Virus record (IMG/VR): IMGVR_UViG_3300008259_003073
Length of the DNA stretch: 64,000 nucleotides
From: a virus
Taxonomy: Duplodnaviria; Caudoviricetes
Reading direction: 5' to 3' (one strand)
The notes below the pieces were generated by a model. It saw only the letters and a program-made list of their open reading frames with translations. It ran no database searches and had not been told where the DNA came from. Of the stretch, positions 1-64,000 are shown piece by piece. Positions within the stretch are counted from its first letter, which is position 1. Each line of letters begins with the position of its first letter. The position numbers and the translations under genes are program-made.

Positions 1-11
1 TTTCATATTAG

Positions 12-554
12 TTAGTTTTCGTAGTATAATGCAGGCCATTCAACAATAATATGAACCCCTCCTTCATTATACGCATTTGTGTATATCTTATAAATATCGT
101 TTGGATTTTTTAATTCCCAAATTTTTGTAAATTGTAATATAGATTTGAATTCTTGTGTATAATCGTTTCTATGTTGAATGCCTGGGTCTAATGGATTGGT
201 GCTTCCTACACCTACTCTAATTATAATATTTGCATTTTTACCAGTCATGTTTTCAAACTTATCAGCATGATTTATTAACTGATTTGCCGCAGATACTAAA
301 AAATCCCATCGTGGATAGAATGATATAACGGTTTTTCCTGTAATTGCCAATCCTAAACTGATTCCCATTTGAGTTTCTTCCATAACAGGTAGCTCAATCA
401 TTTTTTCTTTTGGTACTTCCGTTAAGGTTGTACTCATTGGATTTCCAGCATAAACTATTTGTTGTCCAATGAAGATTGTATCTTCTTTTTGGGCAAGAAA
501 TGTCATTGCTTTGGATAATTCATCTTTATACGGAGATGTTTGTGGAGTACTCAT
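12..554 (-). CDS. ThDP-dependent enzyme beta subunit (PDH E1-beta/transketolase pyrimidine-binding domain only)
   Basis: IFIGQ, IELPVMEETQMG, YPRWDF, NQLINH and IIRVGVGS...QH motifs; 180 aa, lacks the transketolase C-terminal domain. Confidence 0.8.
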   Translation of the reverse strand: MSTPQTSPYKDELSKAMTFLAQKEDTIFIGQQIVYAGNPMSTTLTEVPKEKMIELPVMEETQMGISLGLAITGKTVISFYPRWDFLVSAANQLINHADKFENMTGKNANIIIRVGVGSTNPLDPGIQHRNDYTQEFKSILQFTKIWELKNPNDIYKIYTNAYNEGGVHIIVEWPALYYEN

Positions 555-555
555 A

Positions 556-1683
556 TTATTTGTTTAAATGATTAAAATTATGACCTATGCAAATCTTATC
601 GTTTACAAGGGTATGATTATTTATTTTATTTAGTTCTTCTAAAAATTCAGGAAACAATTCATGCTCTTCATTAAATACCTGTAATTCTTTTAATGTATCC
701 GAATCATAGGTTCCCCAATCTACTAATTGTCTATAATTTATGTCCAAATGAAATGTTGAATCTTTAAATATATTGGTTACTAATTCATAAAACGCAAACA
801 TTTCTTTGTAATTGTGTTTACTCACAACCATAGAAACAATAAACCATCCTATTGTATCAACAGTTGATAAAAACTTTAGATTTTTAATTAACCTATCCCA
901 ATTACCATTTAATCTCGTTTTATTTTCATAGGTATCTTTTGTAGCAGCATCTATACTAACTTCAATTGTTTTGATGTAAGGACTTGCTTTCATTTGATTC
1001 CACAATTTTTCATCTAATAAATTACCATTTGTAATTATTTGCAATTGTTCTAAATTAGGATATTTAGATATGTCAAAATTTATTAAATAATCTCTATAAA
1101 TTTTTGAATAAAATGGGTCTCCACTACCTGTTATCATAATTCTTTTTAGATTACTCGCAAAGTTATCTTCTATAGATTTTAGTAAATGTAGTTTTGCGTT
1201 ATGTTGTGGTGATTCTAAATTATCATTTGGAATTAGAGATATTCTACAAGATGGGCATTTTAAATTGCAACTTCTATCAAACCCAAATAAAATTTCTTCT
1301 GGTGAAGTTTTAAAATTTACAATATCTTCTTCTGTGTGGATATTGTATACTTCTCTAAATTCTTCAATTTTCCTAAAAAAATATGGGGTTCTATCAGTAT
1401 TTATTAGTTCATTTAATCTTGGACATATCGTATGGTCGCAATATTTATAGCTACCGTCTAAAACGGATTTACGAATATTTTGTGCCCGTACTGATGTCCA
1501 ATTTCTCATTACATCATCGGTTTCATCTACTGGAAACCAATTTTCATTTCCATTAGAATCTACTCTGATATTGTGTGGTGCCCAAGATGGGCAACACACA
1601 AATTGAGATACAGTTTGTACATCGGAATACATAAATGGCATTTCACAAACGTATTTTTTAAGTATCTCTTTTTTATCATTCAT
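556..1683 (-). CDS. Radical SAM protein with N-terminal Cys-rich (twitch/SPASM-like) segment
   Basis: CNLKCPSC cluster motif; TGSGDPF, TNG, SIDAAT; N-terminal CEMPF..CCPSW..YCDHTICP; paralog of 62239..63288. Confidence 0.85.
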   Translation of the reverse strand: MNDKKEILKKYVCEMPFMYSDVQTVSQFVCCPSWAPHNIRVDSNGNENWFPVDETDDVMRNWTSVRAQNIRKSVLDGSYKYCDHTICPRLNELINTDRTPYFFRKIEEFREVYNIHTEEDIVNFKTSPEEILFGFDRSCNLKCPSCRISLIPNDNLESPQHNAKLHLLKSIEDNFASNLKRIMITGSGDPFYSKIYRDYLINFDISKYPNLEQLQIITNGNLLDEKLWNQMKASPYIKTIEVSIDAATKDTYENKTRLNGNWDRLIKNLKFLSTVDTIGWFIVSMVVSKHNYKEMFAFYELVTNIFKDSTFHLDINYRQLVDWGTYDSDTLKELQVFNEEHELFPEFLEELNKINNHTLVNDKICIGHNFNHLNK

Positions 1684-2675
1684 TATGGTTTCGAATTTGG
1701 ATTGTATTGATGTTTGTTTGTTTTATACCACTCAATGGTTTCTTTTAGAGCTTGTTTTAAATCTCTTTTTGGTTTCCAACCCAAATCATTAATCTTTTTA
1801 GAAGATAATAATCGAATCGGAATCATTGGTGCTTTATTATTTACATACTCAATAGGATTAGTGTTTCCATCTAATTCTTTAATTGTGGCAAGTGTTTCGT
1901 TTACTGTAAATCCTTCACCATAACATACATTGAAAATATCATATGTATCATTGTTCTCTGCAACAAAGATAAAACCATCTGCCATATCTTCAACGTGCAA
2001 CAAATCTCTCACTTCTGTTCCATCCCCCCAAACAGGAATAGGATTCAATCCATCTGCTACTTTACGGATGTTAGCAGGAGTAACGTGACACTTTTCGTAA
2101 TCAAATTTATCATTTGGTCCGAATGCATTAGATGGTCTAACAATCAAACATTGCATTGGTTCGTGAATCTGATTAGAAAAGAAATCACATAACATCTCAC
2201 CATACCGTTTCATACCACCAACTGCTTTGTAAACTGGTAACATTGGAGTTGCGTGTACATTTATATCTTCAGTACAAAATTCAGTACCCATATCTGGATA
2301 TGTTGTATTTGATGAAATAAATAAGAATTTACGAACTTTATTTTTCCAACTTTGTTCCATTAAATTCGTATTCATCTCCACATTTGGAGTGACGTGAAGT
2401 AATGGATTGAATTTGGTATCCAACGCGTTTGATGTATTTGCTGCACAATGGAATACTACATCTACATCTTTACTAACCAACTCACAAAACTCTGCAGTTT
2501 GTAAATCTCCTTTAATGTGTTCTACATTTTCAGTACCTTCGAAATCGTTTCTTAAATCTCTACTAAATGAGGTTGAGCGTAGGTTTTTGTACCCCTTTTC
2601 CCAAAGTAATCTTAATAAATGTGAACCAATAAATCCACTTGCACCTGTAACTAAAATCTTGTCTGTTTTTTTCAT
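1683..2675 (-). CDS. NAD(P)-dependent nucleotide-sugar epimerase/reductase, GDP-L-fucose synthase-like SDR
   Basis: TGASGFIG Rossmann motif; RPSNAFGPND, HVTPA, WGDG..VRD.LHV.D. Confidence 0.85.
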   Translation of the reverse strand: MKKTDKILVTGASGFIGSHLLRLLWEKGYKNLRSTSFSRDLRNDFEGTENVEHIKGDLQTAEFCELVSKDVDVVFHCAANTSNALDTKFNPLLHVTPNVEMNTNLMEQSWKNKVRKFLFISSNTTYPDMGTEFCTEDINVHATPMLPVYKAVGGMKRYGEMLCDFFSNQIHEPMQCLIVRPSNAFGPNDKFDYEKCHVTPANIRKVADGLNPIPVWGDGTEVRDLLHVEDMADGFIFVAENNDTYDIFNVCYGEGFTVNETLATIKELDGNTNPIEYVNNKAPMIPIRLLSSKKINDLGWKPKRDLKQALKETIEWYKTNKHQYNPNSKP

Positions 2676-2683
2676 AACTTTTT

Positions 2684-3727
2684 TTATTTAAATATATCCC
2701 ATTTTAAAACTACATCATTTACAAATTTATGAGTTAATATGGATGATGTGTGTCCATACCAACTTCTTTCTAAATACTTTTTTTGTTCCTCAATACTCAT
2801 ACCGTTCATCTCTCTCCATAAAACTTTTGGCAGATTATCTTTCTCCAATTCGAAATTAAAATTTCTTATACTCCATTCTATTATTCCTCCGTATAAAGAT
2901 ACTAAATTTTCTTCAAAAAACCAAAAATATCTACTAAAATCTATCTTATCTGCATAAGTTTTTACATACGCATTATCAAATTCTAATTGTTTTTGTTCCC
3001 AAGTATTACAAATATCTTTATTTTCAATTATACACTCATAAACTGATTTATTGGTTGGTGTATGATAATATGGTGGGGTTCTACCTTCTCTTAAATAATT
3101 TTTAGAAAAGTTATTACTCATATTAAAAAACTTTATTTTTGTAATTCCATTTATTTCTAAAAAGTTGAGCAATAATAAAATATATTCGAACCATTCAAAA
3201 TATCTTTCATTATAAGTCATAACTTTATCCAACCATTCAAATGTAACTGGGTCTATATTAATAGGATTTTTGGTTGGATTGAAACCACCAGTTAAATGAA
3301 AATAACCATGTTCGTATTCTGTTGTTTTATCTTTACCACCTATTAAGTAATCACTGGTATGTACCCAGCTATCATTTTGTTTAATATAACTGATTGCAGG
3401 GTTTTTGTTAGATTCATATTTTTCAGGTGAAATAAAAAATGAATTTCGTGTCAGAGTTGTCCATTGAGCAACTACCGATATATCATTTGGGTTTACACCT
3501 TGCTTTAATAAATCAGAAACTTTGTAAATAATAGAACGAGCAATTGTTTTATTATCATGTGTAATAGTTCCATAATTATGTAATGTGTGTGTATCTTTTA
3601 ATTTTTCTTGCAACCAATTGGCCCAAGTCCAATTTTCTATCGGGTCTCGTTCCCATCTTCTTTCATCACCAATATTAATTCTAAAATTGTTAGTAAATGA
3701 ACAACCTGATACTACTATATGTTTCAT
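2684..3727 (-). CDS. SGNH/GDSL-like hydrolase or acyltransferase
   Basis: VVSGCSFT block I motif; C-terminal YGH. Confidence 0.55.
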   Translation of the reverse strand: MKHIVVSGCSFTNNFRINIGDERRWERDPIENWTWANWLQEKLKDTHTLHNYGTITHDNKTIARSIIYKVSDLLKQGVNPNDISVVAQWTTLTRNSFFISPEKYESNKNPAISYIKQNDSWVHTSDYLIGGKDKTTEYEHGYFHLTGGFNPTKNPINIDPVTFEWLDKVMTYNERYFEWFEYILLLLNFLEINGITKIKFFNMSNNFSKNYLREGRTPPYYHTPTNKSVYECIIENKDICNTWEQKQLEFDNAYVKTYADKIDFSRYFWFFEENLVSLYGGIIEWSIRNFNFELEKDNLPKVLWREMNGMSIEEQKKYLERSWYGHTSSILTHKFVNDVVLKWDIFK

Positions 3728-4440
3728 ATATAATTTAATGTTTGTAATTTATTTGATAGAAAATTTGCCCACATTTCATGTCCTTCTTTATTAGGATGTT
3801 CATTTTCAGTTGTTTTAGTGTATCCACCAAATGTTTCTTTTAAAAAATTTGGATAATTTGATATTTCATTATCTGAAATCATGCAGTTATCCCATCCAAA
3901 AAAGTGCAAATGTTTATAACCATTTAATTCCAAATATGCATATAGTGATTTTATATAATTTTTTGTTTTATTTATTTGATATTCTGTATCTAAAAAATAT
4001 CTTATAAATCTTTGAAAATCATTATCATATAATTCTATTAATTTTTTTCTGTCTTCATCCGTTCTATTATAATCTATATTTTCATTCATTACAAATTTAG
4101 TAAAATTCCCATAAAAATTTACATCTTTTAGTATTTTATCTGCCGATGCGTGTAATGCGTTTGGTATTGTAAAATACCAGTTCTTATTATTGTGTGTTGT
4201 AATAAGTTCTGTACGAATATAATTCGTCCATTGAATTATTAATACATCTTCTTTTTTAAATTCTTCATTTAAAATATAAAATACTTTTCTAAAAACATAA
4301 TCGTTGGATGCTCCACAATTTCCAAAGTTATAACAATCTACTTTATGTTTTTCAGAAAGTAATTTTGTATAATTTTCTATTTCACAATTTTCTAACCCCT
4401 GACCTTCTGTAAACGAGCATCCAACGGAATATAATTTCAT
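3724..4440 (-). CDS. SGNH/GDSL-like hydrolase or acyltransferase
   Basis: VGCSFT, NFGNCGASND, EHPNKEGH. Confidence 0.65.
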   Translation of the reverse strand: MKLYSVGCSFTEGQGLENCEIENYTKLLSEKHKVDCYNFGNCGASNDYVFRKVFYILNEEFKKEDVLIIQWTNYIRTELITTHNNKNWYFTIPNALHASADKILKDVNFYGNFTKFVMNENIDYNRTDEDRKKLIELYDNDFQRFIRYFLDTEYQINKTKNYIKSLYAYLELNGYKHLHFFGWDNCMISDNEISNYPNFLKETFGGYTKTTENEHPNKEGHEMWANFLSNKLQTLNYI

Positions 4441-5438: not shown

Positions 5439-5445
5439 TTTATTT

Positions 5446-9437: not shown

Positions 9438-9440
9438 ATA

Positions 9441-10603: not shown

Positions 10604-10604
10604 A

Positions 10605-30910: not shown

Positions 30911-31620
30911 TCCTCGTGTGAGTAGAATGATACTATATTATATTTAATATCATTCTTTACTTTTTCAACTTCATGGAATAAATTTTTATCAGAATCTAAT
31001 ACTACAAAATTAGGAAAAATTGGATTTACTTTAATATCATTTCCATTTAAATCATGTAATATCAAATGCCCACCGTTTGATTCACCCCATTCATTATTTA
31101 AAAAATACAAAAATACACATATTCTGTTGTTAGGTTGTCCATCATCGTGTAATTTTATTTCGCAACCTTCATTGTAAAATTGCAGTTTTGTATTTTCAGT
31201 AAATCTACCAAACGATTTTTCAGGATAGTATTTTTTTACAAAGTTTTTTTGAAAATTTCTTAATACTTCATTGTTTATTTTTCCATTTATTTCTGAATTC
31301 ATAGAGGTACCAAATACCCAAGTTGGATAAAATCCACATTCTTCAATTTTTTTCAATTGATATTGATGTGCTTTATTATAAACATAATCGGCAGTATTTA
31401 AATCTTTATCATTTTTTAAATACCCATCATACACCAATTCTTCCATATATGATTGGTCGTTGTATTTAAACCAATAATCATATCTAGAATGTCTTACAAA
31501 ATTTGTATTATCTATATAATCTTTTATTTGTTTAAACCCATCTAAATCGATTAGTTCGGAATAATCTTCCAACTTACCGTAAATGTATCCACTATTTCTG
31601 TAATTTTCTATACTTTCCAT
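30907..31620 (-). CDS. 2OG-Fe(II) oxygenase (prolyl-4-hydroxylase-like)
   Basis: LHDD (HxD), YFLN..W..GG.L, FHEV. Confidence 0.75.
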   Translation of the reverse strand: MESIENYRNSGYIYGKLEDYSELIDLDGFKQIKDYIDNTNFVRHSRYDYWFKYNDQSYMEELVYDGYLKNDKDLNTADYVYNKAHQYQLKKIEECGFYPTWVFGTSMNSEINGKINNEVLRNFQKNFVKKYYPEKSFGRFTENTKLQFYNEGCEIKLHDDGQPNNRICVFLYFLNNEWGESNGGHLILHDLNGNDIKVNPIFPNFVVLDSDKNLFHEVEKVKNDIKYNIVSFYSHED

Positions 31621-34600
31621 TAGAAATTAATTTTACTATATCCATTTTCTTTTTTAATTTCAATCAATCCATCTACTATATCTCTCATTTGTTCTAAATG
31701 GGAAATTATCCATATAAAATCAAATTGAGTTTTAAGATATTGCATCATCATAAATAGTGATGATAAATTATCTGAATCCAATGTGCCAAATCCTTCATCG
31801 ATTACCAAAAAATTTGGACGAGGTAAGTTACACACATTGATAAGAGCAACTCTAATTGCCAATCCACTAACAAATTTTTCCATACCACTACACATCTCCA
31901 ATGGCCATTCTTGGTCATCATAAACAATTTTGGCATTGATTGATTTTCCATCCATCTCCATCGTAACTCCAAAATCAACTACTTGTGCCAAAATATTATT
32001 TACCTCATTCTCAATTACAGGTAATGCTTTTGAAATTAACTCATATGGGATTCCATCTCTCTTTACTGAATCCAAATAATAGGTATACAGGCGGTTCTTT
32101 TCTTCCAATGCCTTAACATCATTCATCTTCTGTTTTATGTCCTCTATAAACGAAGATATGGATGTAATAGAACCATTTAAATTTGTTATATCTTTATTTA
32201 ATTTACTAATATCATTTGCAATAGTATTTTTTGCTTTATTTAATTCAGAAATTTCACTTTCTATTTCTTTATTTCTAGAAATAGTATCTTCATTTTCATA
32301 ATACTTATCTATATTTTCATCAATTGTATCTAATTGATTTTGTAATAATTGTTCTTTAGTTTTTAAAGCACTTAATTCTATTTGTGTTTTTTCTAAAATA
32401 ATTTTACTTCTAGAGTATTTGTTTTTTAGTTCATTCCACTCATTATATTGCTCTTCAACTCCATTTAAGGAATCTAAAACACAATTGATTGCAGCAACTT
32501 CATTAAAAGTATGCTCTACTGATATTTGCAATCCTTCTAAATCTGATTTTGCTTTTACTGCATCTTTCACAAATTCATTATCACAACAGAATTTACAATT
32601 AGGGTCATATTGGTGATTATTTAAATGTCCAATCTTTTCTTCAGCTACTTCTAATTGTTGTTTTGCTTTTTGGTATACTTTTTCTGCTTCAACTAAATCT
32701 TTGGATTGTTTTACAAAATCGTTATGAGCAATTTCTATATCAACTTCATTGTCATCTATTGTGAATTTACATTTTTCAAATAGGGATTGTGAAACTTCGG
32801 TAAGTAAAATTTTATGTTGTTCAATTTTACTTTCTTTTAATTCATAATCAGTTTCTGCATCTTCAATCTGTTTCGATATAGAGTTTCTTTTTGATTCTAA
32901 TAAAGATAAATCAAGATTAGAATCAATTGGAGTTAATTCTCTACTTAAATTTACAATTTTATCATTTAATTCACTTACTTCCGTATTTTTATCACTTAAT
33001 AATACTTCTAATCCCTTTAATTGTGATTTTTTTTCCAATAATTCCTTACCCTTTTCGGCAAGTTCTGTTGTAAAATCTGTTTTCTTAAAGTTTTTAATCA
33101 ATACGGAAACTTCTCTAATATCTTCAGTTGCAGTATCATATAGTTTATCAAAAATAGTTAAACCCATAAATTGTGCAAGAAGGTCTTTCCTTTCTGATTG
33201 TGATTTATCAATAAAAAGGGCATTATTACCTTGCAGTGATAGTGCAGTTAGTACAAAATCTTCATATTTTCCAACATATTGTTCAATAATTTGGTTTGTA
33301 TCTCTTCTTTCGGTTCCATTTAGTGATGTTTTAGTATCACCATCTTGTCTCCAAAATTGAACATCTACTTTTACATTTTTTCCTTTGTTAATCGTTTTAG
33401 CAGTTCTCTGAATACCATATTCTACCCCATCTATTTGAAAATATAGTGTACAATCAAAATCCGTTTTACGATTATTTAAGATATTAGATGCTTTATATGC
33501 TCTACTACTCTTATCATATAAACAAAACGATACTGCATCAAATAAAGAAGATTTGCCCGCTGCATTTGGGGCAAATAATCCAACTAATCCGTTTAATTTT
33601 GTAAAATCAATTTTGTTACTTTCTCCATAACTAAACATATTTGAAAACTCAAAACGAATTGGTTTCCATTGAATGTTGCGTTGGATGTCATCTTGAACGA
33701 TTCTACTATTTATATCTCTGTTAATCAATTCTAGCCCTTTTAAATCTTCAGGAACTACAAAAGGCATCATTCTCTCAATATACTCATTTATAAGTGAGTT
33801 TTGATAATTGATGTCTGAAATATCTTCAAAGTCTAATTTGTTTAATCTATCACCTGTTTTAGATTTAGAAAGGGAATCGGTTCTAATAATTGTAAAATCC
33901 TCAACACCATATCTCATTTTAATTTCAGCCATTACTCTTTTAGTATCAGCGGAATCGGTATTAGATAAACGAACTCTCAAACGAGGTTTCTTTGGCATAT
34001 CGGATACGATAGGAACTTTCCCATTATCAATATCCATAGTATAATACCCATAATCGTTTTGGATATCAACTGCTTCGTAAGTAAAAGTATCCAAATCCCA
34101 AACGAGGAACCCATGTTTATCTAGGGTTTCACCAAAGTTTTGTTGAATAAGAGAACCAGCATAGACAACCTTACAACCTTTTGGAGAAATCATCTCTTGT
34201 CGTTTGTGAATATCACCTAATAAGGCTAAATCGTATCCATCAAACATATCAGTTGTAAAATGACGAGATGAAACGGTGTATCCAATATCTGTTTGAGAAT
34301 TATCAACTGGCCCGTGAAATAAAGCAATCTTTTTGTTTCCAAATATAGTATTTGCTTTTGGCCAATTTGCTTTATTATCAAAGATACTGAATACCGCAAA
34401 ATCTATTCCACCAATACCATACACTTGAGTATCTTTGAGATATGTAAAGTTTGGTAAGTTTAAAGCATCTACAATTGGAGTAAGAACATCCAATCTATCA
34501 GAGTTATTCATATTACAATCGTGATTACCTGTAATAAGGATTGTTTCACAATGTTTAGAACACTCCGTAAATAACCAACTAATCTCCCTAACTAATTCAG

Positions 34601-34778
34601 GAGATAATTCTAATTTAGCATGAGCAATATCACCTGCTAAATAAATGATTGAATCATCCGTACCTCTTTTACGAATCTCCTCAAACATCTTTTCAAAAAC
34701 CTGTCTGTACTCATTGTGTCTTTTCACATTACGGATGTGTATATCTGCAATATGATAAATCTTTTTCAATCTACTCAT
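31620..34778 (-). CDS. Mre11/SbcD nuclease - Rad50/SbcC ATPase fusion (gp47-gp46-like)
   Basis: DIH, GD, GNHD, GDIH phosphoesterase motifs; Walker A PNAAGKS; zinc hook CKFC; CSGME signature; Walker B IDEGFG. Confidence 0.92.
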   Translation of the reverse strand: MSRLKKIYHIADIHIRNVKRHNEYRQVFEKMFEEIRKRGTDDSIIYLAGDIAHAKLELSPELVREISWLFTECSKHCETILITGNHDCNMNNSDRLDVLTPIVDALNLPNFTYLKDTQVYGIGGIDFAVFSIFDNKANWPKANTIFGNKKIALFHGPVDNSQTDIGYTVSSRHFTTDMFDGYDLALLGDIHKRQEMISPKGCKVVYAGSLIQQNFGETLDKHGFLVWDLDTFTYEAVDIQNDYGYYTMDIDNGKVPIVSDMPKKPRLRVRLSNTDSADTKRVMAEIKMRYGVEDFTIIRTDSLSKSKTGDRLNKLDFEDISDINYQNSLINEYIERMMPFVVPEDLKGLELINRDINSRIVQDDIQRNIQWKPIRFEFSNMFSYGESNKIDFTKLNGLVGLFAPNAAGKSSLFDAVSFCLYDKSSRAYKASNILNNRKTDFDCTLYFQIDGVEYGIQRTAKTINKGKNVKVDVQFWRQDGDTKTSLNGTERRDTNQIIEQYVGKYEDFVLTALSLQGNNALFIDKSQSERKDLLAQFMGLTIFDKLYDTATEDIREVSVLIKNFKKTDFTTELAEKGKELLEKKSQLKGLEVLLSDKNTEVSELNDKIVNLSRELTPIDSNLDLSLLESKRNSISKQIEDAETDYELKESKIEQHKILLTEVSQSLFEKCKFTIDDNEVDIEIAHNDFVKQSKDLVEAEKVYQKAKQQLEVAEEKIGHLNNHQYDPNCKFCCDNEFVKDAVKAKSDLEGLQISVEHTFNEVAAINCVLDSLNGVEEQYNEWNELKNKYSRSKIILEKTQIELSALKTKEQLLQNQLDTIDENIDKYYENEDTISRNKEIESEISELNKAKNTIANDISKLNKDITNLNGSITSISSFIEDIKQKMNDVKALEEKNRLYTYYLDSVKRDGIPYELISKALPVIENEVNNILAQVVDFGVTMEMDGKSINAKIVYDDQEWPLEMCSGMEKFVSGLAIRVALINVCNLPRPNFLVIDEGFGTLDSDNLSSLFMMMQYLKTQFDFIWIISHLEQMRDIVDGLIEIKKENGYSKINF

Positions 34779-48135: not shown

Positions 48136-50163
48136 TTATAAAGCTCTTCCTTTTATATCTTTGTTAGGGTATCTTACTTCGAAAACACAAGGGTCTAATG
48201 ATGGGTATACCACTTTACCTCTAGTTGCTTCATCGATATTGTATTTATTTGGTGAATAATTTCCATCTCCACCACATAAGTTTGAAATCTTAACAGATGG
48301 AACACTCATGACTCCTTCTACATTTGCAAGTATTAATTCTAATTCAGAAATGTTTATTGGTTTATTGAATGTCCAATTATCTATATTAAAATAATCTTGT
48401 ATTTTAACTAAACAATTAGCAACCACTTCTCTTTTATTGTAATTTGAATAACATATTACATCAAAGTCAACACCTATGTTTACAATGAATCCATCAATCA
48501 TATTTACCGCATCGGTAATCAATCGATATTCACCTAAATAAGTTTTAAGATTTTGTTTAACTGCTTGATTTAAATTTACCAAATGTTTGTTAGAATCATA
48601 CCCCAAAACATACATATTGATAGCAAATGGATTATTTACTTCATTTAATGATGATTTTTTAGTTGAAAGGTATTTAATTAATTGTCCTTGAATATCCGAT
48701 TTACTCATACCCTTAAATCCATCTACTAAATTAGTAAATTCTGCAATAGATGCTGGGCTAGATAAAATAGATGCAGGTGAATTGTTGTCTATCTCTCCAT
48801 CTTGAGATACATACACCTTCGCAACTGAACCATATCTTTCTGGCAATGATAATGCTCTTACTATATAATCCTGTTTAGTTACTGCTCTGTTTTGTGAACC
48901 AAATGTTGCTAAAGCGTTTTGTCTGATTTCTTCAATAGATTCTGCCCCTCTACCACCTATTGCAGGTTCTAAATTTTCTACTGCAATTGATGATTTGAAT
49001 GAGTTATACATACCAACAATGTCCGTTGGGATAGCCAGTAAATCATCATCGAATTCAATTTTTTGAATTTTTGTTAAATCACCAACATTAACATTTGATG
49101 CAATTCCTCCACCTGTTAAGTATTTTATACTCAACACTTGCCCAGCAGGTGCTATGCCAAATGTGTTTGTTTTTAAAAAGTTAGATGGGTCAATTCCTTG
49201 ATTCAATCTATTAATAGAATTTGCCAAACCTAATCCTATATTTTTTGTATTAGGTAGTATTTGCTCATCTCTTAAATTAACATCACCACTACCAAATTGT
49301 ATTTCAGTTGTATTATCCGAATTAATTTTTACAGAAAATCTACGAGGTACTTTTTGTACTTCTAAAATATATGGTACTGAACCAGAATACTGTGATAAAT
49401 CATTCACATTGGGTTGTTCTACAAATATACTTTCTTGAGCCAAATATGGAACTTCATAATATCTGTTGTTATTGGAATCAGTTATTGATACTATTTGTAT
49501 GATATTAGTTTCGGATAATTGAATAGATGGGTAATCAGTATCACTACCCAATGTAATAGCAGTAGTATTTTCTTTAGCTGAAATGGCTTTAATTTTTTTG
49601 GATACTAAATATTGAGTAGGGGTACCAGTTGTAGCATCCCTTTCGTATACTTCAATTGTTCTATCCGTTGGATTTTCAAAATCGATTGCATCGGTAGTTA
49701 TAAAAGATACATTACTATTTGTGGAGGATTGTACCTCAAATCCAGCTTTTATTTTAAAATAAAATCTACTATCTGCGGAATAATTAACACCACCATTTTC
49801 AACTTCAAAAACCGATGGTATTAATTGATAAACAGTCAGTGTGGTTATAGCGGGTGAAGTTACTTTAGGTTTATATCCCATAGATTGAGCCAATGAAACC
49901 ACATTTTTACGTTCCGTAGCATGGGATAACATTGATTCTTTTAATTGAGTATCTTGGTAAAATGAAAGAACATCTCCAATTGCAGCAGCCTGTTCAATAA
50001 ACACCATACCAGGTGATGCTTCATTAAAATCTGAATATGTATTTGGGAAATAGGTTTTAGTAAAATCTATTAAATTTTGCTTAAACGTGGCAAAATCTTT
50101 ACCAATGTAATTGATGTTTTTAGTATCACTACCCCAACTTTTGTTTGATGGATTAATTGCCAT
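48136..50163 (-). CDS. Baseplate wedge protein (T4 gp6/baseplate J-like)
   Basis: KDF..FK..L, GGRGAES.EEIR, RAVT..DY, GSVAKVYV. Confidence 0.8.
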   Translation of the reverse strand: MAINPSNKSWGSDTKNINYIGKDFATFKQNLIDFTKTYFPNTYSDFNEASPGMVFIEQAAAIGDVLSFYQDTQLKESMLSHATERKNVVSLAQSMGYKPKVTSPAITTLTVYQLIPSVFEVENGGVNYSADSRFYFKIKAGFEVQSSTNSNVSFITTDAIDFENPTDRTIEVYERDATTGTPTQYLVSKKIKAISAKENTTAITLGSDTDYPSIQLSETNIIQIVSITDSNNNRYYEVPYLAQESIFVEQPNVNDLSQYSGSVPYILEVQKVPRRFSVKINSDNTTEIQFGSGDVNLRDEQILPNTKNIGLGLANSINRLNQGIDPSNFLKTNTFGIAPAGQVLSIKYLTGGGIASNVNVGDLTKIQKIEFDDDLLAIPTDIVGMYNSFKSSIAVENLEPAIGGRGAESIEEIRQNALATFGSQNRAVTKQDYIVRALSLPERYGSVAKVYVSQDGEIDNNSPASILSSPASIAEFTNLVDGFKGMSKSDIQGQLIKYLSTKKSSLNEVNNPFAINMYVLGYDSNKHLVNLNQAVKQNLKTYLGEYRLITDAVNMIDGFIVNIGVDFDVICYSNYNKREVVANCLVKIQDYFNIDNWTFNKPINISELELILANVEGVMSVPSVKISNLCGGDGNYSPNKYNIDEATRGKVVYPSLDPCVFEVRYPNKDIKGRAL

Positions 50164-55573: not shown

Positions 55574-55577
55574 AATC

Positions 55578-56267: not shown

Positions 56268-56268
56268 T

Positions 56269-56511: not shown

Positions 56512-56513
56512 AA

Positions 56514-57161: not shown

Positions 57162-57165
57162 ATTT

Positions 57166-57375
57166 TTATTTATTTTTAAGTCCGTATTTTATAAATTTAT
57201 ACCATATTCTTTCATGTAGAAAGTATTGTATGGGTTTGTACACTAATTCAACCACTCCGAAAGCAGCACCTATTTTAATAGAACCACTTATCCACCACAT
57301 TATTAAGAATCCAATTAAAGTACTTACAATGCGGTATGAGATGGTTTTAGCTATGTGTCTTTTTACCTGTGGCAT
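57166..57375 (-). CDS. DUF2061-like small membrane protein
   Basis: RHIAKTISYR..T, E...K...Y.LHERIW. Confidence 0.75.
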   Translation of the reverse strand: MPQVKRHIAKTISYRIVSTLIGFLIMWWISGSIKIGAAFGVVELVYKPIQYFLHERIWYKFIKYGLKNK

Positions 57376-57712
57376 CTATTTCTCCATTTCTGATTGCAGT
57401 TCCACTAATTTCGGCTATATTTGTGGGTGGTTCGTGATAAATTACATCATACCCTACTCCTCTACCATAATTTACTGATTCAATATCAGGAATAATTGAT
57501 ATATGAATTTTATCCCAATTATCAATAAAAAAAGATTCTTTAGTTAAATCTATCATAACCTGTTGAGCAGTTTTTGGATTATTCTCATCTGTTGGAACAT
57601 CTCTAATTGCTAACCAAACATTTTTACCCTTTTCTAATTGTTGATTGATTAACCACTCATGTCCTTTGTGCCAATTCTGCCATCTTCCGATGTATAGTGC
57701 GTATTTTTTCAT
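57347..57712 (-). CDS. Cytidylyltransferase-like (HIGH-type) nucleotidyltransferase
   Basis: IGRWQNWHKGH, ISGTAIR. Confidence 0.75.
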   Translation of the reverse strand: MKKYALYIGRWQNWHKGHEWLINQQLEKGKNVWLAIRDVPTDENNPKTAQQVMIDLTKESFFIDNWDKIHISIIPDIESVNYGRGVGYDVIYHEPPTNIAEISGTAIRNGEIDATGKKTHS

Positions 57713-58608: not shown

Positions 58609-58612
58609 ATGT

Positions 58613-58643
58613 TAAATATAAGAAAATTATTTCGTATTTACAA
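58613..58643 (-). promoter_or_regulatory. Bacteroidota-type -33/-7 promoter
   Basis: TTGT-N19-TATATTTA, 4 nt before the uvsE ATG. Confidence 0.55.
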
Positions 58644-58647
58644 GCGT

Positions 58648-59730
58648 TTAGTAAATTTTGATGTTTTCATCCTCTGTGCGGAATCTAGCTAAATCTCTAA
58701 CATTCCCTTTTTTAGTATTTAACCAATAATTTACCGCTTTTGGATTATTTATCCACAATTTACGATTATTCCATGGAAATTCTGGATGCATATACTCTTC
58801 CCATTTTAAATTCGGTAATTCTTCTTCTTCTTTAGGGGGATTTTCTACTATATCTTCATTTACCGTTGGTTTATCTTCCAATCCGTCGTTCAAAATTACA
58901 TCCCAATCATCATACAGACCATCTTTCTCATCTGCTTGTATGATTTCTTTAAGAAGTTCTCTTTGTTTTTCTTTATCACCGTATACTTCGTATTCTTTTT
59001 CTTTTTTATCAGAAATTAATCCGTTAAATGCGATAATTAGAGCAACTGCGAGTGGGTCAAAGACAATTACAATCAAAAATATGAAGAATTTTACTACATT
59101 TTTCAATTCTATATCAAATGCCTCTGCTACAAATCGAAATCCACCCACTTCTTTCTCTAAATCTAGGTTAGTAACCTTAATTTCGTTAATTTTTTCGGTT
59201 TCGGCTGCATTTTCTTCTTGTAAAATTGAAATTTTATCATTAATTTTACTGATTTCTTTATCTCTAGCATCAATTGAACGCAGTAAACGAGAATTTACCG
59301 TACCTCCATCGATAATTTTACCTTGATTAGTATTAAATTCACTAATTTGAGTAGAAAGTTGAGTGATTTGAGCAGTGTTTTGGTCAATTTTAGTTTGATG
59401 AACTTCAATTTCTCTATCTACCTGTTGTAACTGAAGAGATTGTGCCTGAAAAGCATTAGAAAGGTATCCGAAAATACCTGCAGAGGTGATTAACATAAGA
59501 ACTCCTACTGAAAGTGTAAGATACCATTTGTTAAATCCACCAATTACATCCCATTTTTGTTTTAAGTATGTTGCAGCAACTAATTTAGCTAACTCCAACG
59601 AAGATGCCATCACTATAACAGATGTAGATGCTCCTGCAAAAAGAACACCTAATCCAGTTACAGAGAAATAAGCAGCACATCCGGCTATAATAATAGCAGA
59701 TAACCCCACTAATACTTTTAGCCAATTCAT
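58648..59730 (-). CDS. Membrane protein with coiled coil and acidic tail
   Basis: Three N-terminal hydrophobic helices, coiled coil, a fourth helix. Confidence 0.6.
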   Translation of the reverse strand: MNWLKVLVGLSAIIIAGCAAYFSVTGLGVLFAGASTSVIVMASSLELAKLVAATYLKQKWDVIGGFNKWYLTLSVGVLMLITSAGIFGYLSNAFQAQSLQLQQVDREIEVHQTKIDQNTAQITQLSTQISEFNTNQGKIIDGGTVNSRLLRSIDARDKEISKINDKISILQEENAAETEKINEIKVTNLDLEKEVGGFRFVAEAFDIELKNVVKFFIFLIVIVFDPLAVALIIAFNGLISDKKEKEYEVYGDKEKQRELLKEIIQADEKDGLYDDWDVILNDGLEDKPTVNEDIVENPPKEEEELPNLKWEEYMHPEFPWNNRKLWINNPKAVNYWLNTKKGNVRDLARFRTEDENIKIY

Positions 59731-59731
59731 A

Positions 59732-59908
59732 TTATCGATTTATTCTGGATAATTCTGCTACGCGTTCTACTAACATTCTAGCATCTGCTAATGTAGCATG
59801 TGCTTCAGATGGTGATAAATGTTGTGCACCACTAATTCCATTCTGTAAAATTCTCAATTTACCATCAATGGCTTCCAATAGGTTTTTTATTTTTTCGTCG
59901 TATATCAT
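59732..59908 (-). CDS. Small hypothetical protein, 58 aa (not in ORF track)
   Basis: My translation: MIYDEKIKNLLEAIDGKLRILQNGISGAQHLSPSEAHATLADARMLVERVAELSRINR; stop 1 nt before next ATG. Confidence 0.7.
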   Translation of the reverse strand: MIYDEKIKNLLEAIDGKLRILQNGISGAQHLSPSEAHATLADARMLVERVAELSRINR

Positions 59909-59927
59909 AGTAATAAGTATTTTTAAA

Positions 59928-59959
59928 TAAAAAAAGGTGGTAAGTTTACCCTACCACCT
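59928..59959 (-). terminator. Rho-independent terminator after hsp20
   Basis: AGGTGGTA-N9-TACCACCT stem followed by a T-tract on the minus strand. Confidence 0.75.
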
Positions 59960-59983
59960 ATAAATATACAAAAAATAATTCAC

Positions 59984-60427
59984 TTAATCAACTTTAATTG
60001 AAATTGATTTTGATTTCCTTTCGTCTTTCTTATCAATTGTTAAAGTAAGTAACCCATTAGTGAATTTTGCCTCCGTTTTAGTTCCATCATAATCTTTGCC
60101 TACACTGAATGTGGAATCGATGTCCTGTACTAACGGAGAACTACCTTCTTGCTTTTTTGCTTTAATTGTTACCTTATCTTCGGTAACTTCTAATTTAATG
60201 TTTTTAACATCATGCCCTAATACATTAAATGTTAATTGTTGTTTACCATCCTCCAACTGCGTTACATCGTAATCTGCCGCAAATGTATTGTAATTAGTTG
60301 TGGTAGTGTACCAGTTTGGAGAATTAAATAAATTTACTAATTTTTTTAAATCTGAATTGTACATAGTTAATTTGTTTAAGTTTTTGAAATAATTTAAATT
60401 CATATTATCCAATACTATACCAACCAA
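59984..60427 (-). CDS. Small heat-shock protein (Hsp20); true start probably MYNSDL at 60364
   Basis: Alpha-crystallin domain: IKLEV..DKVTIKA, AKFTNGLLTLTI.K. Confidence 0.85.
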   Translation of the reverse strand: MVGIVLDNMNLNYFKNLNKLTMYNSDLKKLVNLFNSPNWYTTTTNYNTFAADYDVTQLEDGKQQLTFNVLGHDVKNIKLEVTEDKVTIKAKKQEGSSPLVQDIDSTFSVGKDYDGTKTEAKFTNGLLTLTIDKKDERKSKSISIKVD

Positions 60428-60434
60428 ATTAATA

Positions 60435-60479
60435 TGACAAAGTGTCAGTATTCTTTAATAAATATCTGACACAATGTCT
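60435..60479. promoter_or_regulatory. Paired TGACA-N3-TGTC palindromes upstream of hsp20
   Basis: TGACAaagTGTCA 60435-60447 and TGACAcaaTGTCT 60467-60479 flanking ATATTTATT (minus). Confidence 0.5.
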
Positions 60480-60482
60480 GTA

Positions 60483-61136
60483 TTATTTAGATTTATTGTA
60501 ATTTTGTCTTTCAATAACAGTACTCATATGGTCTGCCCAATGCATTATATACTGAATGTTTGATTTAAGATACTTGGATACATCAAATACTTTATAGTAT
60601 TTTACATTATCCTCATCATACATACCATCTGTAAGTTTAATACCAAAGTATTCATTTTCATTATACTGAATACCATACCTATTAAGTAAGAAGAAAGTTC
60701 TATCAGTAATAGCCATATACGAGTTCTTACTATTTCTAGTATAGACTTCACCTTTATTTTTTACATGCCAATCTGATTCATTAGGATGATAATGTAATTC
60801 TTCTTTGGTTCCTAACTTACCTAAATCATGATGTAGTGCTACAAAAATTAATTCTTCATCTGTAAAATCAGGTTCACCACCTTGTGATGTAAATAGATTT
60901 TTTACAGCAAGTGCATTCTTGCAAACATTAAAAATATGGTCGATATAACCACCTGGATATGCATTATGAAAATTTAAATTACCAGAAGCTGGTGAAATCA
61001 TAAGGTTACCACCTAATTCTGATTCAGAATACATATGAAGAAGTTTTTCTAATCTTTCACCTGTGAAGTACTTTTCTAGGATTTTGAGAAACTTTTCGTA
61101 ATTTGCTTTTAATTCTTGTTCTGTTTTTTGCTTCAT
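60483..61136 (-). CDS. HD-domain phosphohydrolase (YhaM-like)
   Basis: PAS..FHNAYPGGYIDH, ALHHDLGK, HWAD. Confidence 0.8.
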   Translation of the reverse strand: MKQKTEQELKANYEKFLKILEKYFTGERLEKLLHMYSESELGGNLMISPASGNLNFHNAYPGGYIDHIFNVCKNALAVKNLFTSQGGEPDFTDEELIFVALHHDLGKLGTKEELHYHPNESDWHVKNKGEVYTRNSKNSYMAITDRTFFLLNRYGIQYNENEYFGIKLTDGMYDEDNVKYYKVFDVSKYLKSNIQYIMHWADHMSTVIERQNYNKSK

Positions 61137-61174
61137 TTTCTTGAGTAGTAATGAGTTTAACTATTAATAATACC

Positions 61175-61182
61175 CAAACATA
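61175..61182 (-). promoter_or_regulatory. Bacteroidota -7 box
   Basis: TATGTTTG preceded by AAAATTTTTCG in the intergenic gap. Confidence 0.5.
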
Positions 61183-61209
61183 CGAAAAATTTTCAAATTT
61201 TCCTAGTCA

Positions 61210-61524
61210 TTACATAAAAAGTTTTTTCTTTGTTAGGATTTCATACAGAATTTCAACTTCTTCTTCAGTAGTTAATTCAGGTAAATCATCATCAAATAAT
61301 CGAACGGTGTAGATTGTGTTTCCGTTTTCATCAAAAAATTCATCAGATTCGGAACTGAATAATACTGGAGCAAATTCTATATTTTCTATATCATCTTCAT
61401 CTATATCTACCAATGGTATGACGTAATAATGGTAGGAATCTATACCATCTTCTACTTCTATTTTATGACACTTCCATCTATTGAAGCTATTTTCGGTTAT
61501 TGGATTCTGCGGTAATATAATCAT
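61210..61524 (-). CDS. Hypothetical acidic protein
   Basis: 104-aa ORF, no recognised motif. Confidence 0.6.
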   Translation of the reverse strand: MIILPQNPITENSFNRWKCHKIEVEDGIDSYHYYVIPLVDIDEDDIENIEFAPVLFSSESDEFFDENGNTIYTVRLFDDDLPELTTEEEVEILYEILTKKKLFM

Positions 61525-61542
61525 AATTAAAATTTTTACAAG

Positions 61543-61574
61543 TAAATATAGTAAAAAAATATGAATTTTACAAA
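61543..61574 (-). promoter_or_regulatory. Bacteroidota-type -33/-7 promoter
   Basis: TTTG-N20-TATATTTA. Confidence 0.55.
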
Positions 61575-61584
61575 TTACCGTTTC

Positions 61585-62235
61585 TTATAATAATTTTTTA
61601 CCATCTTCATTAAATAATGATGAGTATACATAATTAGCGAATTGTTTATGCCCAAGAAAACTTAAATGGTAATCTTCCATTTTACCTTTGGTAGCATCTT
61701 TTATATTCTGTGCGTGTGAATCCTCCCAAATAGTTTGTGTATAAAATTCAAAATATTTATAACATTTTATTATAGATTTTAAAAAATCATATCGTTTCTC
61801 GTGACGTTTACGATATACATCGTGTCCACTAAAGTAATATGAAAAATTAACAATAGTTTCATATTTTTCTTTATTTTCAATTGTGGTCTTATAACCAGTA
61901 TCGGATTTAATAACCTCACCACATACATTATAAAATTCATCTGGATTATGAGATGGTATATCAAATCTATATGAAAAAGTTTTATTAACAATTACAATAT
62001 CGTTTTCCGAAATTGAATGATAATTATCTATTATCTTATCAAATATATAATCGTTAGATGCTCCACATTTTCCTAAATTATTTAATTTATAACCTAATTT
62101 ATTAGCCAATATAACAGGCCAAATCAAATCATCATCTGATTTTTTATATTTTTTATAGTATTCATCTCCCTCATAATTTGGTACACACCCGTGTCCAAAG
62201 GTCATTGAATCACCAAAAGTCCAAAGTGTTGCCAT
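61585..62235 (-). CDS. SGNH/GDSL-like hydrolase or acyltransferase
   Basis: FGDSMT, NLGKCGASND, DYHLSFLGH. Confidence 0.7.
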   Translation of the reverse strand: MATLWTFGDSMTFGHGCVPNYEGDEYYKKYKKSDDDLIWPVILANKLGYKLNNLGKCGASNDYIFDKIIDNYHSISENDIVIVNKTFSYRFDIPSHNPDEFYNVCGEVIKSDTGYKTTIENKEKYETIVNFSYYFSGHDVYRKRHEKRYDFLKSIIKCYKYFEFYTQTIWEDSHAQNIKDATKGKMEDYHLSFLGHKQFANYVYSSLFNEDGKKLL

Positions 62236-62238
62236 TAT

Positions 62239-63288
62239 TTAAATTAAAGGTTTTTCAGTTGTATATAAATGATGAAAATTATGTATTACATTTGGAATAT
62301 TTTTAACTTTATCCAATTCTAACAAAAACGAATTATATTCAGCATGGTCTGGATTTGCTACATTTTTAATTTTAAATTCAGCTTCACTAAATGTACCCCA
62401 ATCAGAAATCACATTGGTTCTAATATCCCATTTTACTTTAGTTTCTCTTTTATCCATATATGATTTAATCATTTTATAAAAATCGTACATTTCTTTATAA
62501 TTAGTATCTTGCACTACAAATGAAAAAATATATTCTTTTATAGTTGGTATTTTTGTTATAAACTTTAAATTTTCATGCAACACATCCCAATTACCTCCAA
62601 TTCTAGTTTTAGTTTCGTATGTTTCTTTTGTAGCAGCATCTATTGAAATCTCACAAGTATTAACATAACGATGTATACCATTCATTTTCTCCCACATTTC
62701 AGGAGTCCATAATGAACCATTTGTATGTAAATGAATTGATTTTAATTTTTTAAATCTATTTGAATCCAATGTAATAAGAAACTGTCTGAATGATTTTGAG
62801 AAAAATGGGTCAGCTGAACCACTTAATACCAATCGTTCAACGAACGGTGATATTTCATCGTTAATTTCAGTTAGTTTTTTTTCTACGGATATTCGTTTAC
62901 TACCTTTATAATTTATTAATTCAACCCTACAAGATGGGCATTGAAAATTACAGCTTCTATCAAATGTAAAATTAATTATTTTAGGCCCCTTTGTTTTATG
63001 TAAATAATCAACATTTTCGGATGTATTGGGTATGAATTTAGAAGGTATTCTATTACTTTTAAAACTTGCTAAATATGGACACAAAAATTCATTACAGTAT
63101 TTGTAACTACCATCAGTTACACTATCTCTTATTTTTTCAGAAATTTCAGAATTAAAACTATCCAATATCCCTTTACCACTATTAATATCCGTACTTAACC
63201 AAGATGGACAACATAAAAATTGTTTATTATCTTCTACCTCTGTAAAGAAGAATGGAGTTGTGCATATATATTTTGATTTATCAATCAT
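62239..63288 (-). CDS. Radical SAM protein, paralog of 556..1683
   Basis: CNFQCPSC; CTTPF..CCPSW; DGSYKYC; SIDAATKETYE. Confidence 0.85.
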   Translation of the reverse strand: MIDKSKYICTTPFFFTEVEDNKQFLCCPSWLSTDINSGKGILDSFNSEISEKIRDSVTDGSYKYCNEFLCPYLASFKSNRIPSKFIPNTSENVDYLHKTKGPKIINFTFDRSCNFQCPSCRVELINYKGSKRISVEKKLTEINDEISPFVERLVLSGSADPFFSKSFRQFLITLDSNRFKKLKSIHLHTNGSLWTPEMWEKMNGIHRYVNTCEISIDAATKETYETKTRIGGNWDVLHENLKFITKIPTIKEYIFSFVVQDTNYKEMYDFYKMIKSYMDKRETKVKWDIRTNVISDWGTFSEAEFKIKNVANPDHAEYNSFLLELDKVKNIPNVIHNFHHLYTTEKPLI

Positions 63289-63767
63289 ACTAATTTATTC
63301 TTTAATAAATCTTTACTTAAAAATGCAATTAGAGACCATCGTTCACCACTAGTAACCTCTGTTACTTCGTGTAATCTACTACCATAAAAGGTATAGATAT
63401 TTCCGGCAATTTTAGGTACAATAAATTTTGGATTATAGCAAATGAGTTCTCCTCCTTGATAATCATCATTTAAACAAGCACCTATGTTATATAAACTATG
63501 TTTATCAATATGAGGTTCAAATTTATTTCCCTTTTGTACATTTTGTAAATGAATCACATTGAGTGGTTTATTCAATGTGATGTTTGTATTCATTTTAAGA
63601 TAGTTTAACAATCGTTCAAATATCCATTCAGTTATTTCATTTCTTTCTATATGCCAAGCAAAATAAATAGTTTCATTACTTTCCCACCATTCATTTGATA
63701 AATGTTTTTGAAATAAATTTGATAATGATATTATTTCGTTACATTCTTCTTTTGTAAAGTTTATCAT
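63285..63767 (-). CDS. 2OG-Fe(II) oxygenase
   Basis: PHID, LNDDYQGGEL, LHEV..VTSGERWS. Confidence 0.85.
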   Translation of the reverse strand: MINFTKEECNEIISLSNLFQKHLSNEWWESNETIYFAWHIERNEITEWIFERLLNYLKMNTNITLNKPLNVIHLQNVQKGNKFEPHIDKHSLYNIGACLNDDYQGGELICYNPKFIVPKIAGNIYTFYGSRLHEVTEVTSGERWSLIAFLSKDLLKNKLV

Positions 63768-63803
63768 TATAAAAATTATTTTTTTATTAAGTCAATCAGA
63801 ACA

Positions 63804-64000
63804 CTATATTAGTGATTTATTTAATGCGAAATTATCAATTGATAACCAAAAAACAATACTATATCGTATACCATCTTTAATTTTATTAACACTATGTTCG
63901 ATAGATGAATCAAACATTATAACATTTCCAATTTCTTTTGAAGATACTATTGTATCATCATTGTGAAAAATACATAATTCACCACCATCATAATCGGTTT
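63804..64000 (-). CDS. 2OG-Fe(II) oxygenase, C-terminal part (runs off window; not in ORF track)
   Basis: My translation: ...DYDGGEL..GNVIMFDSSIEHSVNKIKDGIRYSIVFWL..NKSLI*. Confidence 0.75.
   Translation of the reverse strand, partial: TDYDGGELCIFHNDDTIVSSKEIGNVIMFDSSIEHSVNKIKDGIRYSIVFWLSIDNFALNKSLI

What the first reader, a model, noticed from the sequence alone, without database searches (positions are those of the whole stretch)
1..64000. GATC appears to be absent from the whole window
Seen: reading every GAT context by eye I found no GATC, while GATA/GATT/GATG and the palindromes TCGA, AGCT, GTAC, CCGG, GGCC, GCGC and CATG all occur. Base composition alone would give on the order of 150 sites (rough estimate). 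Known: phages purge sites of host restriction or Dam-dependent systems (Sau3AI/MboI/DpnI type). Inference: strong long-term selection at GATC, which also suggests the DNA is not globally shielded by sugar modification. A manual scan can miss a few sites.
Basis: seen in the sequence. Interest (0 to 1): 0.6.

Follow-up and report, generated by a model that had tools for sequence, protein, structure and literature searches.

The report
Phage genome purged of GATC sites
This uncultured freshwater T4-like phage and almost all of its relatives have removed the four-letter DNA word GATC by silent codon changes, which is the well-known way phages escape bacterial DNA-cutting enzymes, so it is a clear but ordinary case.

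Summary
GATC occurs 0 times in the 64-kb window, against 167 expected from dinucleotide shuffles and 212 from a Markov model (z -17.5). It occurs twice in the 94-kb record held; a synonymous-codon shuffle expects 222 +/- 9.

The purge is purely synonymous:
- Asp before a C-starting codon is GAC 94 times and GAT twice. Elsewhere Asp is 94-96% GAT.
- ATC never follows a G-ending codon (0 of 218).
- AGA, GGA or CGA followed by Ser always uses AGY (39 of 39).

The purge is clade-wide. Seventy-three related IMG/VR loci (791 kb) hold 5 GATC against about 2460 expected, and a 92%-complete 176-kb relative holds 1 against 554. One nested subclade has relaxed to about a third of expectation, mainly by GAC reverting to GAT.

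A second word, CTNAG, is also absent (0 against 120 in the window), but only in the window's near kin. Other sublineages purge ACGT, CATG, GTAC, CTAG, GATATC or AATATT.

This is restriction-site avoidance, a known kind. The host and the cutting enzyme were not identified. No DNA methyltransferase or GATC nuclease was found in the phage records searched. GATC-directed nuclease families occur in about 1-2% each of the Bacteroidota species sampled.

The scan has noted GATC avoidance before: 55 findings in at least 54 other genomes.

The parts
1..64000 (.). Stretch with no GATC on either strand. It is part of a record with 2 GATC in 94,186 bases. The two survivors lie outside the window, at G000:C1:5314 and 12315, both in the Asp GAT|C frame of minus-strand genes.
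   Evidence: 0 observed against 167 (dinucleotide shuffle), 212 (Markov), and 222 for the whole record under a synonymous-codon shuffle.
1..64000 (.). The same stretch has no CTNAG (DdeI-type word) on either strand. This also explains the strong depletion of CTTA/TAAG among tetramers.
   Evidence: 0 against 120.5 +/- 12.6; 0 of 140 in the whole record, with CTAAG/CTTAG 0 of 85 and CTCAG/CTGAG 0 of 56; a synonymous shuffle gives 135 +/- 10.
48136..50163 (-). Baseplate wedge gene (gp6/J-like), used as the marker to collect and order 162 related loci. It is not itself part of the mechanism.
   Evidence: phrog_219, phrog_6.

Best explanation
The phage lineage has eliminated GATC, the recognition word of MboI/DpnII/Sau3AI-type Type II restriction enzymes and, when adenine-methylated, of DpnI-type enzymes. 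Incoming and replicating phage DNA then offers no target to GATC-directed nucleases in its host population. Shown here: each GATC that arises is removed by selection, and the genome keeps its proteins by using otherwise disfavoured synonymous codons (GAC before C, ATT/ATA after G, AGY serine after NGA). The state is maintained across a deep clade. Other words (CTNAG, ACGT, CATG, GTAC, CTAG, GATATC, AATATT) are purged in individual sublineages, as expected if each meets its own set of host restriction enzymes. Inferred: that the agent is a host nuclease, and which one. Both modification-blocked and modification-dependent GATC cutters exist in Bacteroidota. Site loss is the only escape that works against both, and this may be why GATC is the deepest and most complete purge.
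For: (1) Size of the effect. (2) Synonymous mechanism in all three reading frames: Asp GAT 2 / GAC 94 before C against 94-96% GAT elsewhere; ATC 0 of 218 after G-ending codons against 12-13% elsewhere; NGA followed by Ser is AGY in 39 of 39 cases. (3) Conservation: 73 clade-A loci (791 kb) hold 5 GATC against about 2460 expected. The 176-kb, 92%-complete relative G001 holds 1 of 554. (4) Relaxation: the subclade L049-L052, L056, L057, L067 and its 102-kb record G002 have 151 of 404 GATC, spread evenly along the genome. At 24 of 60 alignable G002 sites, G000 has GACC. The rare GAC codon is therefore held only by the avoidance. (5) The mosaic of other purged Type II words maps onto the tree. (6) No self-protection by methylation: no D12, N6_N4 above cut-off, or phage-Dam methyltransferase in G000, G001 or G002. 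(7) GATC-directed nucleases occur in the candidate host phylum: DpnII family full-length in 3 of 401 genomes, each next to a D12 methyltransferase; MutH/Sau3AI family in 6 of 301; DpnI family in 3-4 of 301. (8) Precedent: the GATC-free 140-kb staphylococcal phage K evades Sau3A (PMC6532042). Complete or near-complete site elimination is seen in about a tenth of viral genomes, mostly for orthodox Type II sites, and GATC is also avoided where hosts have Type IIM enzymes (PMC6286503).
Against: The host is unknown, so no cognate enzyme could be matched. Recognisable GATC nucleases are rare among Bacteroidota species representatives, about 1-2% per family. This does not by itself explain why the purge is universal across such a deep clade. 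However, restriction genes vary between strains and many are not recognised by Pfam. The host phylum is itself uncertain. The nearest cultured relative is annotated as a Microcystis phage. Early promoters of the relative G001 carry a strongly conserved CTTGAC -35-like box. Only about half of this genome was readable, so a phage methyltransferase or nuclease in the unread half cannot be excluded.
Confidence: 0.75

Rival explanations
1. Modification-dependent restriction alone. Phage DNA becomes adenine-methylated at GATC, by a host Dam-like enzyme in some hosts or by a phage enzyme. It is then cut by DpnI-type (Type IIM/IV) nucleases in the next host. Losing GATC removes the methylatable target.
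For: D12-class (Dam-like) methyltransferases are common in the candidate phylum, in 116 of 301 genomes. DpnI-family nucleases are present in 3-4 of 301. PMC6286503 reports GATC reduced in all 46 phages whose hosts encode the Type IIM enzyme. An MTase-like gene scores weakly in the relative G001 (PF01555 at 17.8 bits, PF03602 at 26.4 bits).
Against: This cannot explain the parallel purges of CTNAG, ACGT, CATG, GTAC, CTAG and CCGG, which are classical Type IIP words. DpnI-family genes are no more frequent than DpnII or Sau3AI-type genes in the survey. This reading is not exclusive of the main one.
Confidence: 0.12
2. Self-weapon. The phage encodes a GATC-specific endonuclease to degrade host DNA and protects itself by having no sites. 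Chloroviruses are known to carry restriction enzymes of their own.
For: The purge is universal across the clade, which fits a conserved phage-borne agent better than strain-variable host systems do. An earlier scan note on giant viruses linked GATC purging to virus-borne restriction cassettes (unchecked).
Against: No DpnII-family or MutH/Sau3AI-family match was found in G000, in the 92%-complete G001, or in G002, G003, G004, Mel-JY01 or L088's record. Pfam scans of 30 larger non-structural proteins of G001 showed only ordinary T4-like replication and repair enzymes and a NUMOD3 homing-type protein. Many restriction folds would escape these searches.
Confidence: 0.04
3. Avoidance of Dam-directed processes rather than restriction, such as MutH-type mismatch-repair nicking or Dam-dependent regulation. 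This has been proposed for phiX174 and enterobacteriophages.
For: phiX174 lacks GATC and this has been linked to mismatch repair (PMC5014478, abstract listed). D12 methyltransferases are common in Bacteroidota.
Against: MutH-family proteins were found in only 6 of 301 Bacteroidota genomes. The strongest three are about 465-480 aa, Sau3AI-like, rather than MutH-sized. Methyl-directed MutH repair is, from my own knowledge, a gammaproteobacterial trait. This reading does not explain the other purged words.
Confidence: 0.03
4. No selection: a compositional or mutational bias, or a sequencing or assembly artefact.
For: None found.
Against: z is -17 to -24 under three different nulls. One-mismatch neighbours of GATC are abundant, about 5000 in the record. 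The context-specific codon switches are exact. The same absence appears in contigs from many independent samples, while related contigs and bacterial contigs have normal counts.
Confidence: 0.01

Closest known systems
GATC-free staphylococcal phage K (about 140 kb myovirus), which evades Sau3A restriction (as reviewed in PMC6532042)
   Same: A large virulent myovirus with low G+C. GATC is eliminated essentially completely across the whole genome, with no need for a protective methyltransferase.
   Different: In phage K the host enzyme (Sau3A) is known. Here host and enzyme are unknown. Here the purge is documented across a deep uncultured freshwater clade, with one lineage that has relaxed, and it is accompanied by a second complete purge (CTNAG) in the window's near kin.
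Restriction-site avoidance in non-temperate dsDNA phages (Rusinov et al. 2018, PMC6286503)
   Same: Short palindromic Type II words are under-represented or eliminated. Different phages avoid different words. The effect is strongest in virulent phages.
   Different: That study paired phages with known hosts and annotated R-M systems. Here the pattern is inferred from sequence and phylogeny alone.
GATC absence in phiX174 and scarcity in enterobacteriophages, linked to Dam/MutH (PMC5014478)
   Same: The same word is missing.
   Different: That explanation depends on Dam-directed MutH repair in enterobacteria. The MutH family is rare and Sau3AI-like in the candidate host phylum. Several other restriction words are also purged here.

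Membership tests
Restriction-site (palindrome) avoidance in virulent dsDNA phages | The word is significantly under-represented against composition-aware nulls | tested here: met
   0 of 167-212 in the window; 2 of 222-321 in the record; z -17.5 to -23.7.
Restriction-site (palindrome) avoidance in virulent dsDNA phages | The word is the recognition site of known Type II restriction enzymes | tested here: met
   GATC is the Sau3A site (PMC6532042) and a Type IIM site (PMC6286503). Pfam families DpnII, MutH/Sau3AI and DpnI were found in Bacteroidota genomes. CTNAG as the DdeI site is from my own knowledge.
Restriction-site (palindrome) avoidance in virulent dsDNA phages | Sites are removed at the DNA level without changing proteins (synonymous, context-dependent codon choice) | tested here: met
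   all three frames; synonymous shuffle; GACC in G000 where the relaxed relative has GATC.
Restriction-site (palindrome) avoidance in virulent dsDNA phages | The avoided words differ between related lineages, tracking different host enzyme repertoires | tested here: met
   ACGT is 0 in two separate groups. GTAC is near 0 in three. CTAG is 0 in Mel-JY01. CTNAG is 0 only in the window's near kin. GATATC and AATATT are 0 in parts of the sister clade.
Restriction-site (palindrome) avoidance in virulent dsDNA phages | The host encodes a cognate restriction enzyme | not testable with these tools
   The host is not identified.
Phage self-protection by a Dam-like methyltransferase | The phage encodes a GATC (D12, N6_N4 or phage-Dam class) methyltransferase | tested here: not met
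   none above cut-off in G000, G001 (92% complete) or G002. About half of this genome was not readable.
Dam/MutH-driven GATC avoidance (phiX174 type) | The host lineage has methyl-directed MutH | tested here: inconclusive
   MutH family in 6 of 301 Bacteroidota genomes, the strongest being Sau3AI-sized two-domain proteins. The host itself is unknown.

The most novel reading that the evidence does not exclude
The clade-wide, essentially perfect GATC purge may be held in place by something more constant than strain-variable Type II R-M systems. One possibility is a two-sided trap in the host population, with DpnII/Sau3AI-type cutters of unmethylated GATC in some strains and Dam plus DpnI-type cutters of methylated GATC in others. 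Site loss would be the only stable escape from that. Another possibility is a GATC-specific nuclease carried by the phages themselves, in the unread half of the genome, and used against host DNA.
Probability: 0.12. Interest if true: 0.55.

Novelty: new member of a known kind. Interest (0 to 1): 0.3.

Why it matters
The case gives a clean, quantified natural record of restriction-site avoidance in an abundant, uncultured freshwater T4-like phage group. One word is lost in the common ancestor and kept out over deep divergence. One lineage lets it drift back. Other words are purged lineage by lineage. These word fingerprints could serve as host-range markers, predicting which restriction enzymes the unknown hosts carry. 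They also warn that codon-usage analyses of such phages are distorted by site avoidance. The case does not change what is known about how phages evade restriction.

Tried and rejected
- **Close matches among cultured phages.** Megablast and tblastn of two window genes against cultured phages found nothing. Only the baseplate protein found cultured relatives, at 39-42% identity.
- **Host markers.** A T9SS sorting-domain search was uninformative because the control also rang nowhere. A TonB-receptor search found nothing in the readable records.
- **Host from an auxiliary gene.** The one genome-contig scan returned a 94%-identical hit in a Pelagibacterales MAG. That contig is collinear with the phage and is a mis-binned phage contig, not host evidence.
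- **Protein atlas.** The carbamoyltransferase gave mixed taxa.
- **Promoter motifs.** Counts of the Bacteroidota motif TAnnTTTG were inconclusive. The relative's early promoters read CTTGAC-N~20-TAT(A/C)TT, which fits both sigma-70 and Bacteroidota-type models.
- **Gene-content comparison.** GATC-free and GATC-relaxed genomes could not be compared usefully, because G000 and G002 both cover only the structural half.
- **Literature.** Searches for Mel-JY01 and Immutovirus gave nothing on GATC.
Full report
**Observation**

GATC is absent from both strands of the 64,000-base window. Dinucleotide-preserving shuffles give 167 +/- 14 sites. A second-order Markov model gives 212.5, z = -17.5, the most extreme of all 256 tetramers.

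The record that holds the window (G000) is a 94,186-base linear IMG/VR virus contig rated about 50% complete. It has two GATC against 321 expected, z = -21.5.

I also used a stricter null that keeps every protein sequence and the overall codon usage and shuffles only synonymous codons. It gives 222.5 +/- 9.3, with a minimum of 198 in 200 shuffles, against 2 observed. About 5000 words in the record are one substitution away from GATC, so mutation supplies new sites constantly.

**What the sequence is**

The window is almost entirely coding, and 93 of 98 ORFs in the record lie on the minus strand. It carries:
- T4-type baseplate-wedge and long-tail-fibre genes;
- a fused SbcC/SbcD-like nuclease;
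- a carbamoyltransferase;
- a run of sugar epimerase/dehydratase and radical-SAM genes.

The nearest cultured relatives of the baseplate protein are Microcystis phage Mel-JY01 (42% identity) and Flavobacterium phage vB_FspM_immuto (39%). The nearly complete relative G001 (176 kb) has T4-like replication genes: gp32, a RecA/UvsX homologue, a 5'-3' exonuclease, a DnaB-like helicase, ribonucleotide reductase, PhoH and thymidylate synthase. It also has 24 tRNA genes and a tmRNA.

**How the sites were removed**

All three reading frames show exact, context-dependent synonymous switching.
- Asp is GAT in 94-96% of cases before codons starting with A, G or T. Before a C-starting codon it is GAC 94 times and GAT twice, and those two are the surviving sites.
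- Ile after a G-ending codon is never ATC (0 of 218, against 12-13% elsewhere).
- AGA, GGA or CGA followed by Ser always uses AGY (39 of 39). TCN serines follow only other Arg and Gly codons.

The proteins are untouched. Selection acts on the DNA word.

**Evolutionary depth**

The baseplate protein has 443 relatives in IMG/VR. The best 80 loci (71-96% identity, 904 kb) contain 147 GATC against 2903 expected.

On a tree of 163 baseplate proteins (FastTree) the window sits in a clade of 81 rows. Seventy-three of the related loci in that clade (791 kb) hold 5 GATC against about 2460 expected. The 176-kb relative G001 has 1 GATC against 554 expected, z = -28.

One nested subclade (L049-L052, L056, L057, L067) has GATC at about one third of expectation. 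In its 102-kb record G002 the 151 sites are spread evenly, 2-18 per 5 kb. At 24 of 60 alignable sites G000 reads GACC. So once the constraint relaxed, the disfavoured GAC codon drifted back to GAT.

In the sister clade around Mel-JY01 (L083-L162) the pattern is patchy:
- most members have 30-90% of expected GATC;
- L088, L089, L091 and Mel-JY01 itself have none;
- Flavobacterium phage immuto is normal (136 of 143).

**Other purged words**

A 5- and 6-mer scan showed that CTNAG is also completely absent: 0 against 120.5 in the window, 0 of 140 in the record, and 135 +/- 10 under the synonymous shuffle. This purge is younger than the GATC purge:
- complete only in the window's near kin (L001-L010, L013);
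- nearly complete in the GATC-relaxed subclade (7 of 121 in G002);
- weak or absent elsewhere in the clade.

Other sublineages have their own zeros:
- ACGT in two separate groups;
- CATG near zero in one group;
- GTAC in three groups;
- CTAG in Mel-JY01;
- GATATC through most of the sister clade;
- AATATT in several of its branches.

In this record CATG, ACGT, CCGG, GTAC, CTAG, TCGA and AATATT are significantly but incompletely depleted. A lineage-by-lineage mosaic of short Type II-type words is the signature of restriction-site avoidance described by Rusinov et al. (PMC6286503).

**What is doing the selecting**

I could not identify the host. Shine-Dalgarno cores occur upstream of only 3% of genes, below background, with an A-rich leader. 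This matches the Flavobacterium phage (2%) and differs from Mel-JY01 (26%).

The relative's early promoters read CTTGAC-N~20-TAT(A/C)TT, which fits either promoter model.

A 94%-identical epimerase gene in a Pelagibacterales MAG lies on a contig that is collinear with the phage throughout and has 1 of 53 GATC. The MAG's other contigs have normal GATC. That contig is therefore a mis-binned phage contig.

I surveyed an even sample of Bacteroidota species genomes:

| Family | Genomes with a match |
|---|---|
| DpnII-family enzymes, full length, each next to a D12 methyltransferase | 3 of 401 |
| MutH/Sau3AI-family proteins | 6 of 301 |
| DpnI-family proteins | 3-4 of 301 |
| D12 methyltransferases | 116 of 301 |

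Both kinds of GATC cutter exist in the phylum but are rare among species representatives. Strain-level variation and unrecognised nuclease folds mean this is a lower bound.

The phage records searched carry no D12, N6_N4 (only a 17.8-bit hit) or phage-Dam methyltransferase, and no DpnII- or MutH-family nuclease. The relative G001 encodes a SAM-lyase-family protein. From my own knowledge, that family includes the T3 anti-restriction enzyme, which disables SAM-dependent Type I/III systems but not Mg-only Type II enzymes. That would complement site avoidance, but it is an inference and was not seen in the readable part of this genome.

**Comparison and verdict**

This works like, and belongs with, classical restriction-site avoidance. 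The closest single precedent is the GATC-free 140-kb staphylococcal phage K, which evades Sau3A (PMC6532042).

Every defining feature I could test is met: significance, a known restriction word, synonymous removal, and lineage-specific variation. The presence of a cognate host enzyme could not be tested.

It remains untested. An earlier unchecked scan note reports a candidate hypermodification module in a part of the genome outside the held record.

The scan has logged 55 similar GATC-avoidance findings in at least 54 other genomes. The kind is familiar. What is added here is the clade-wide map, the relaxed lineage, and the second purged word.

Noticed in passing
window 1-64000 (and all of G000): CTNAG (the DdeI-type word) is completely absent: 0 against 120 expected in the window and 0 of 140 in the record. 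The purge is confined to the window's near kin and is nearly complete in the GATC-relaxed subclade.
   Followed up: yes
L182/L183 (G006:C6, GenBank VHCC01000006.1, 23 kb): A contig binned in a 'Candidatus Pelagibacterales' MAG is collinear with this phage (G000 about 18.7-45.9 kb, 70-82% nucleotide identity) and has 1 of 53 GATC. The MAG's other contigs have normal GATC. It is probably a mis-binned phage contig, not host evidence.
   Followed up: partly
L190:11360-12097 (+), relative G001: A gene of the S-adenosylmethionine lyase family (PF23780, E 3e-13). This is a possible anti-restriction or anti-methylation function that would complement site avoidance.
   Followed up: no
L190-L192 (G001:6046-54914): About 20 early-region promoters share the consensus AAAAG(A/G)CTTGAC(T/A)T-N14-TTT(T/C)GTAT(A/C)TT. 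Many are followed by a GAGAG-rich leader such as TGAGAGTGAGAG.
   Followed up: no
L190:12589-19436 and L191:1223-1309 (G001): A cluster of 24 tRNA genes plus a predicted tmRNA with an unusually long tag peptide, in the relative's early region.
   Followed up: no
L082 and W01 (Microcystis phage Mel-JY01, PP395634.1): A 42-kb stretch has 0 GATC (83 expected) and 0 CTAG (36 expected). The genome carries four N6_N4-class methyltransferase genes, unlike the window's clade.
   Followed up: partly
G083:C62:20712-22173 (a Bacteroidota genome in the survey): A D12 (Dam-like) methyltransferase gene lies directly next to a full-length DpnI-family nuclease gene. This pairing is odd if the nuclease needs methylated GATC.
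   Followed up: no
window 31620-34778 (-): A single 1052-aa ORF joins an SbcD-like phosphoesterase N-terminus to an SbcC-like ATPase. In T4 the gp47/gp46 equivalents are separate genes.
   Followed up: no
L148, L131, L115, L133, L117, L156, L145, L140, L136 (sister clade): AATATT (the SspI-type word) is absent, 0 against 7-28 expected per locus. GATATC is absent through most of the sister clade.
   Followed up: partly
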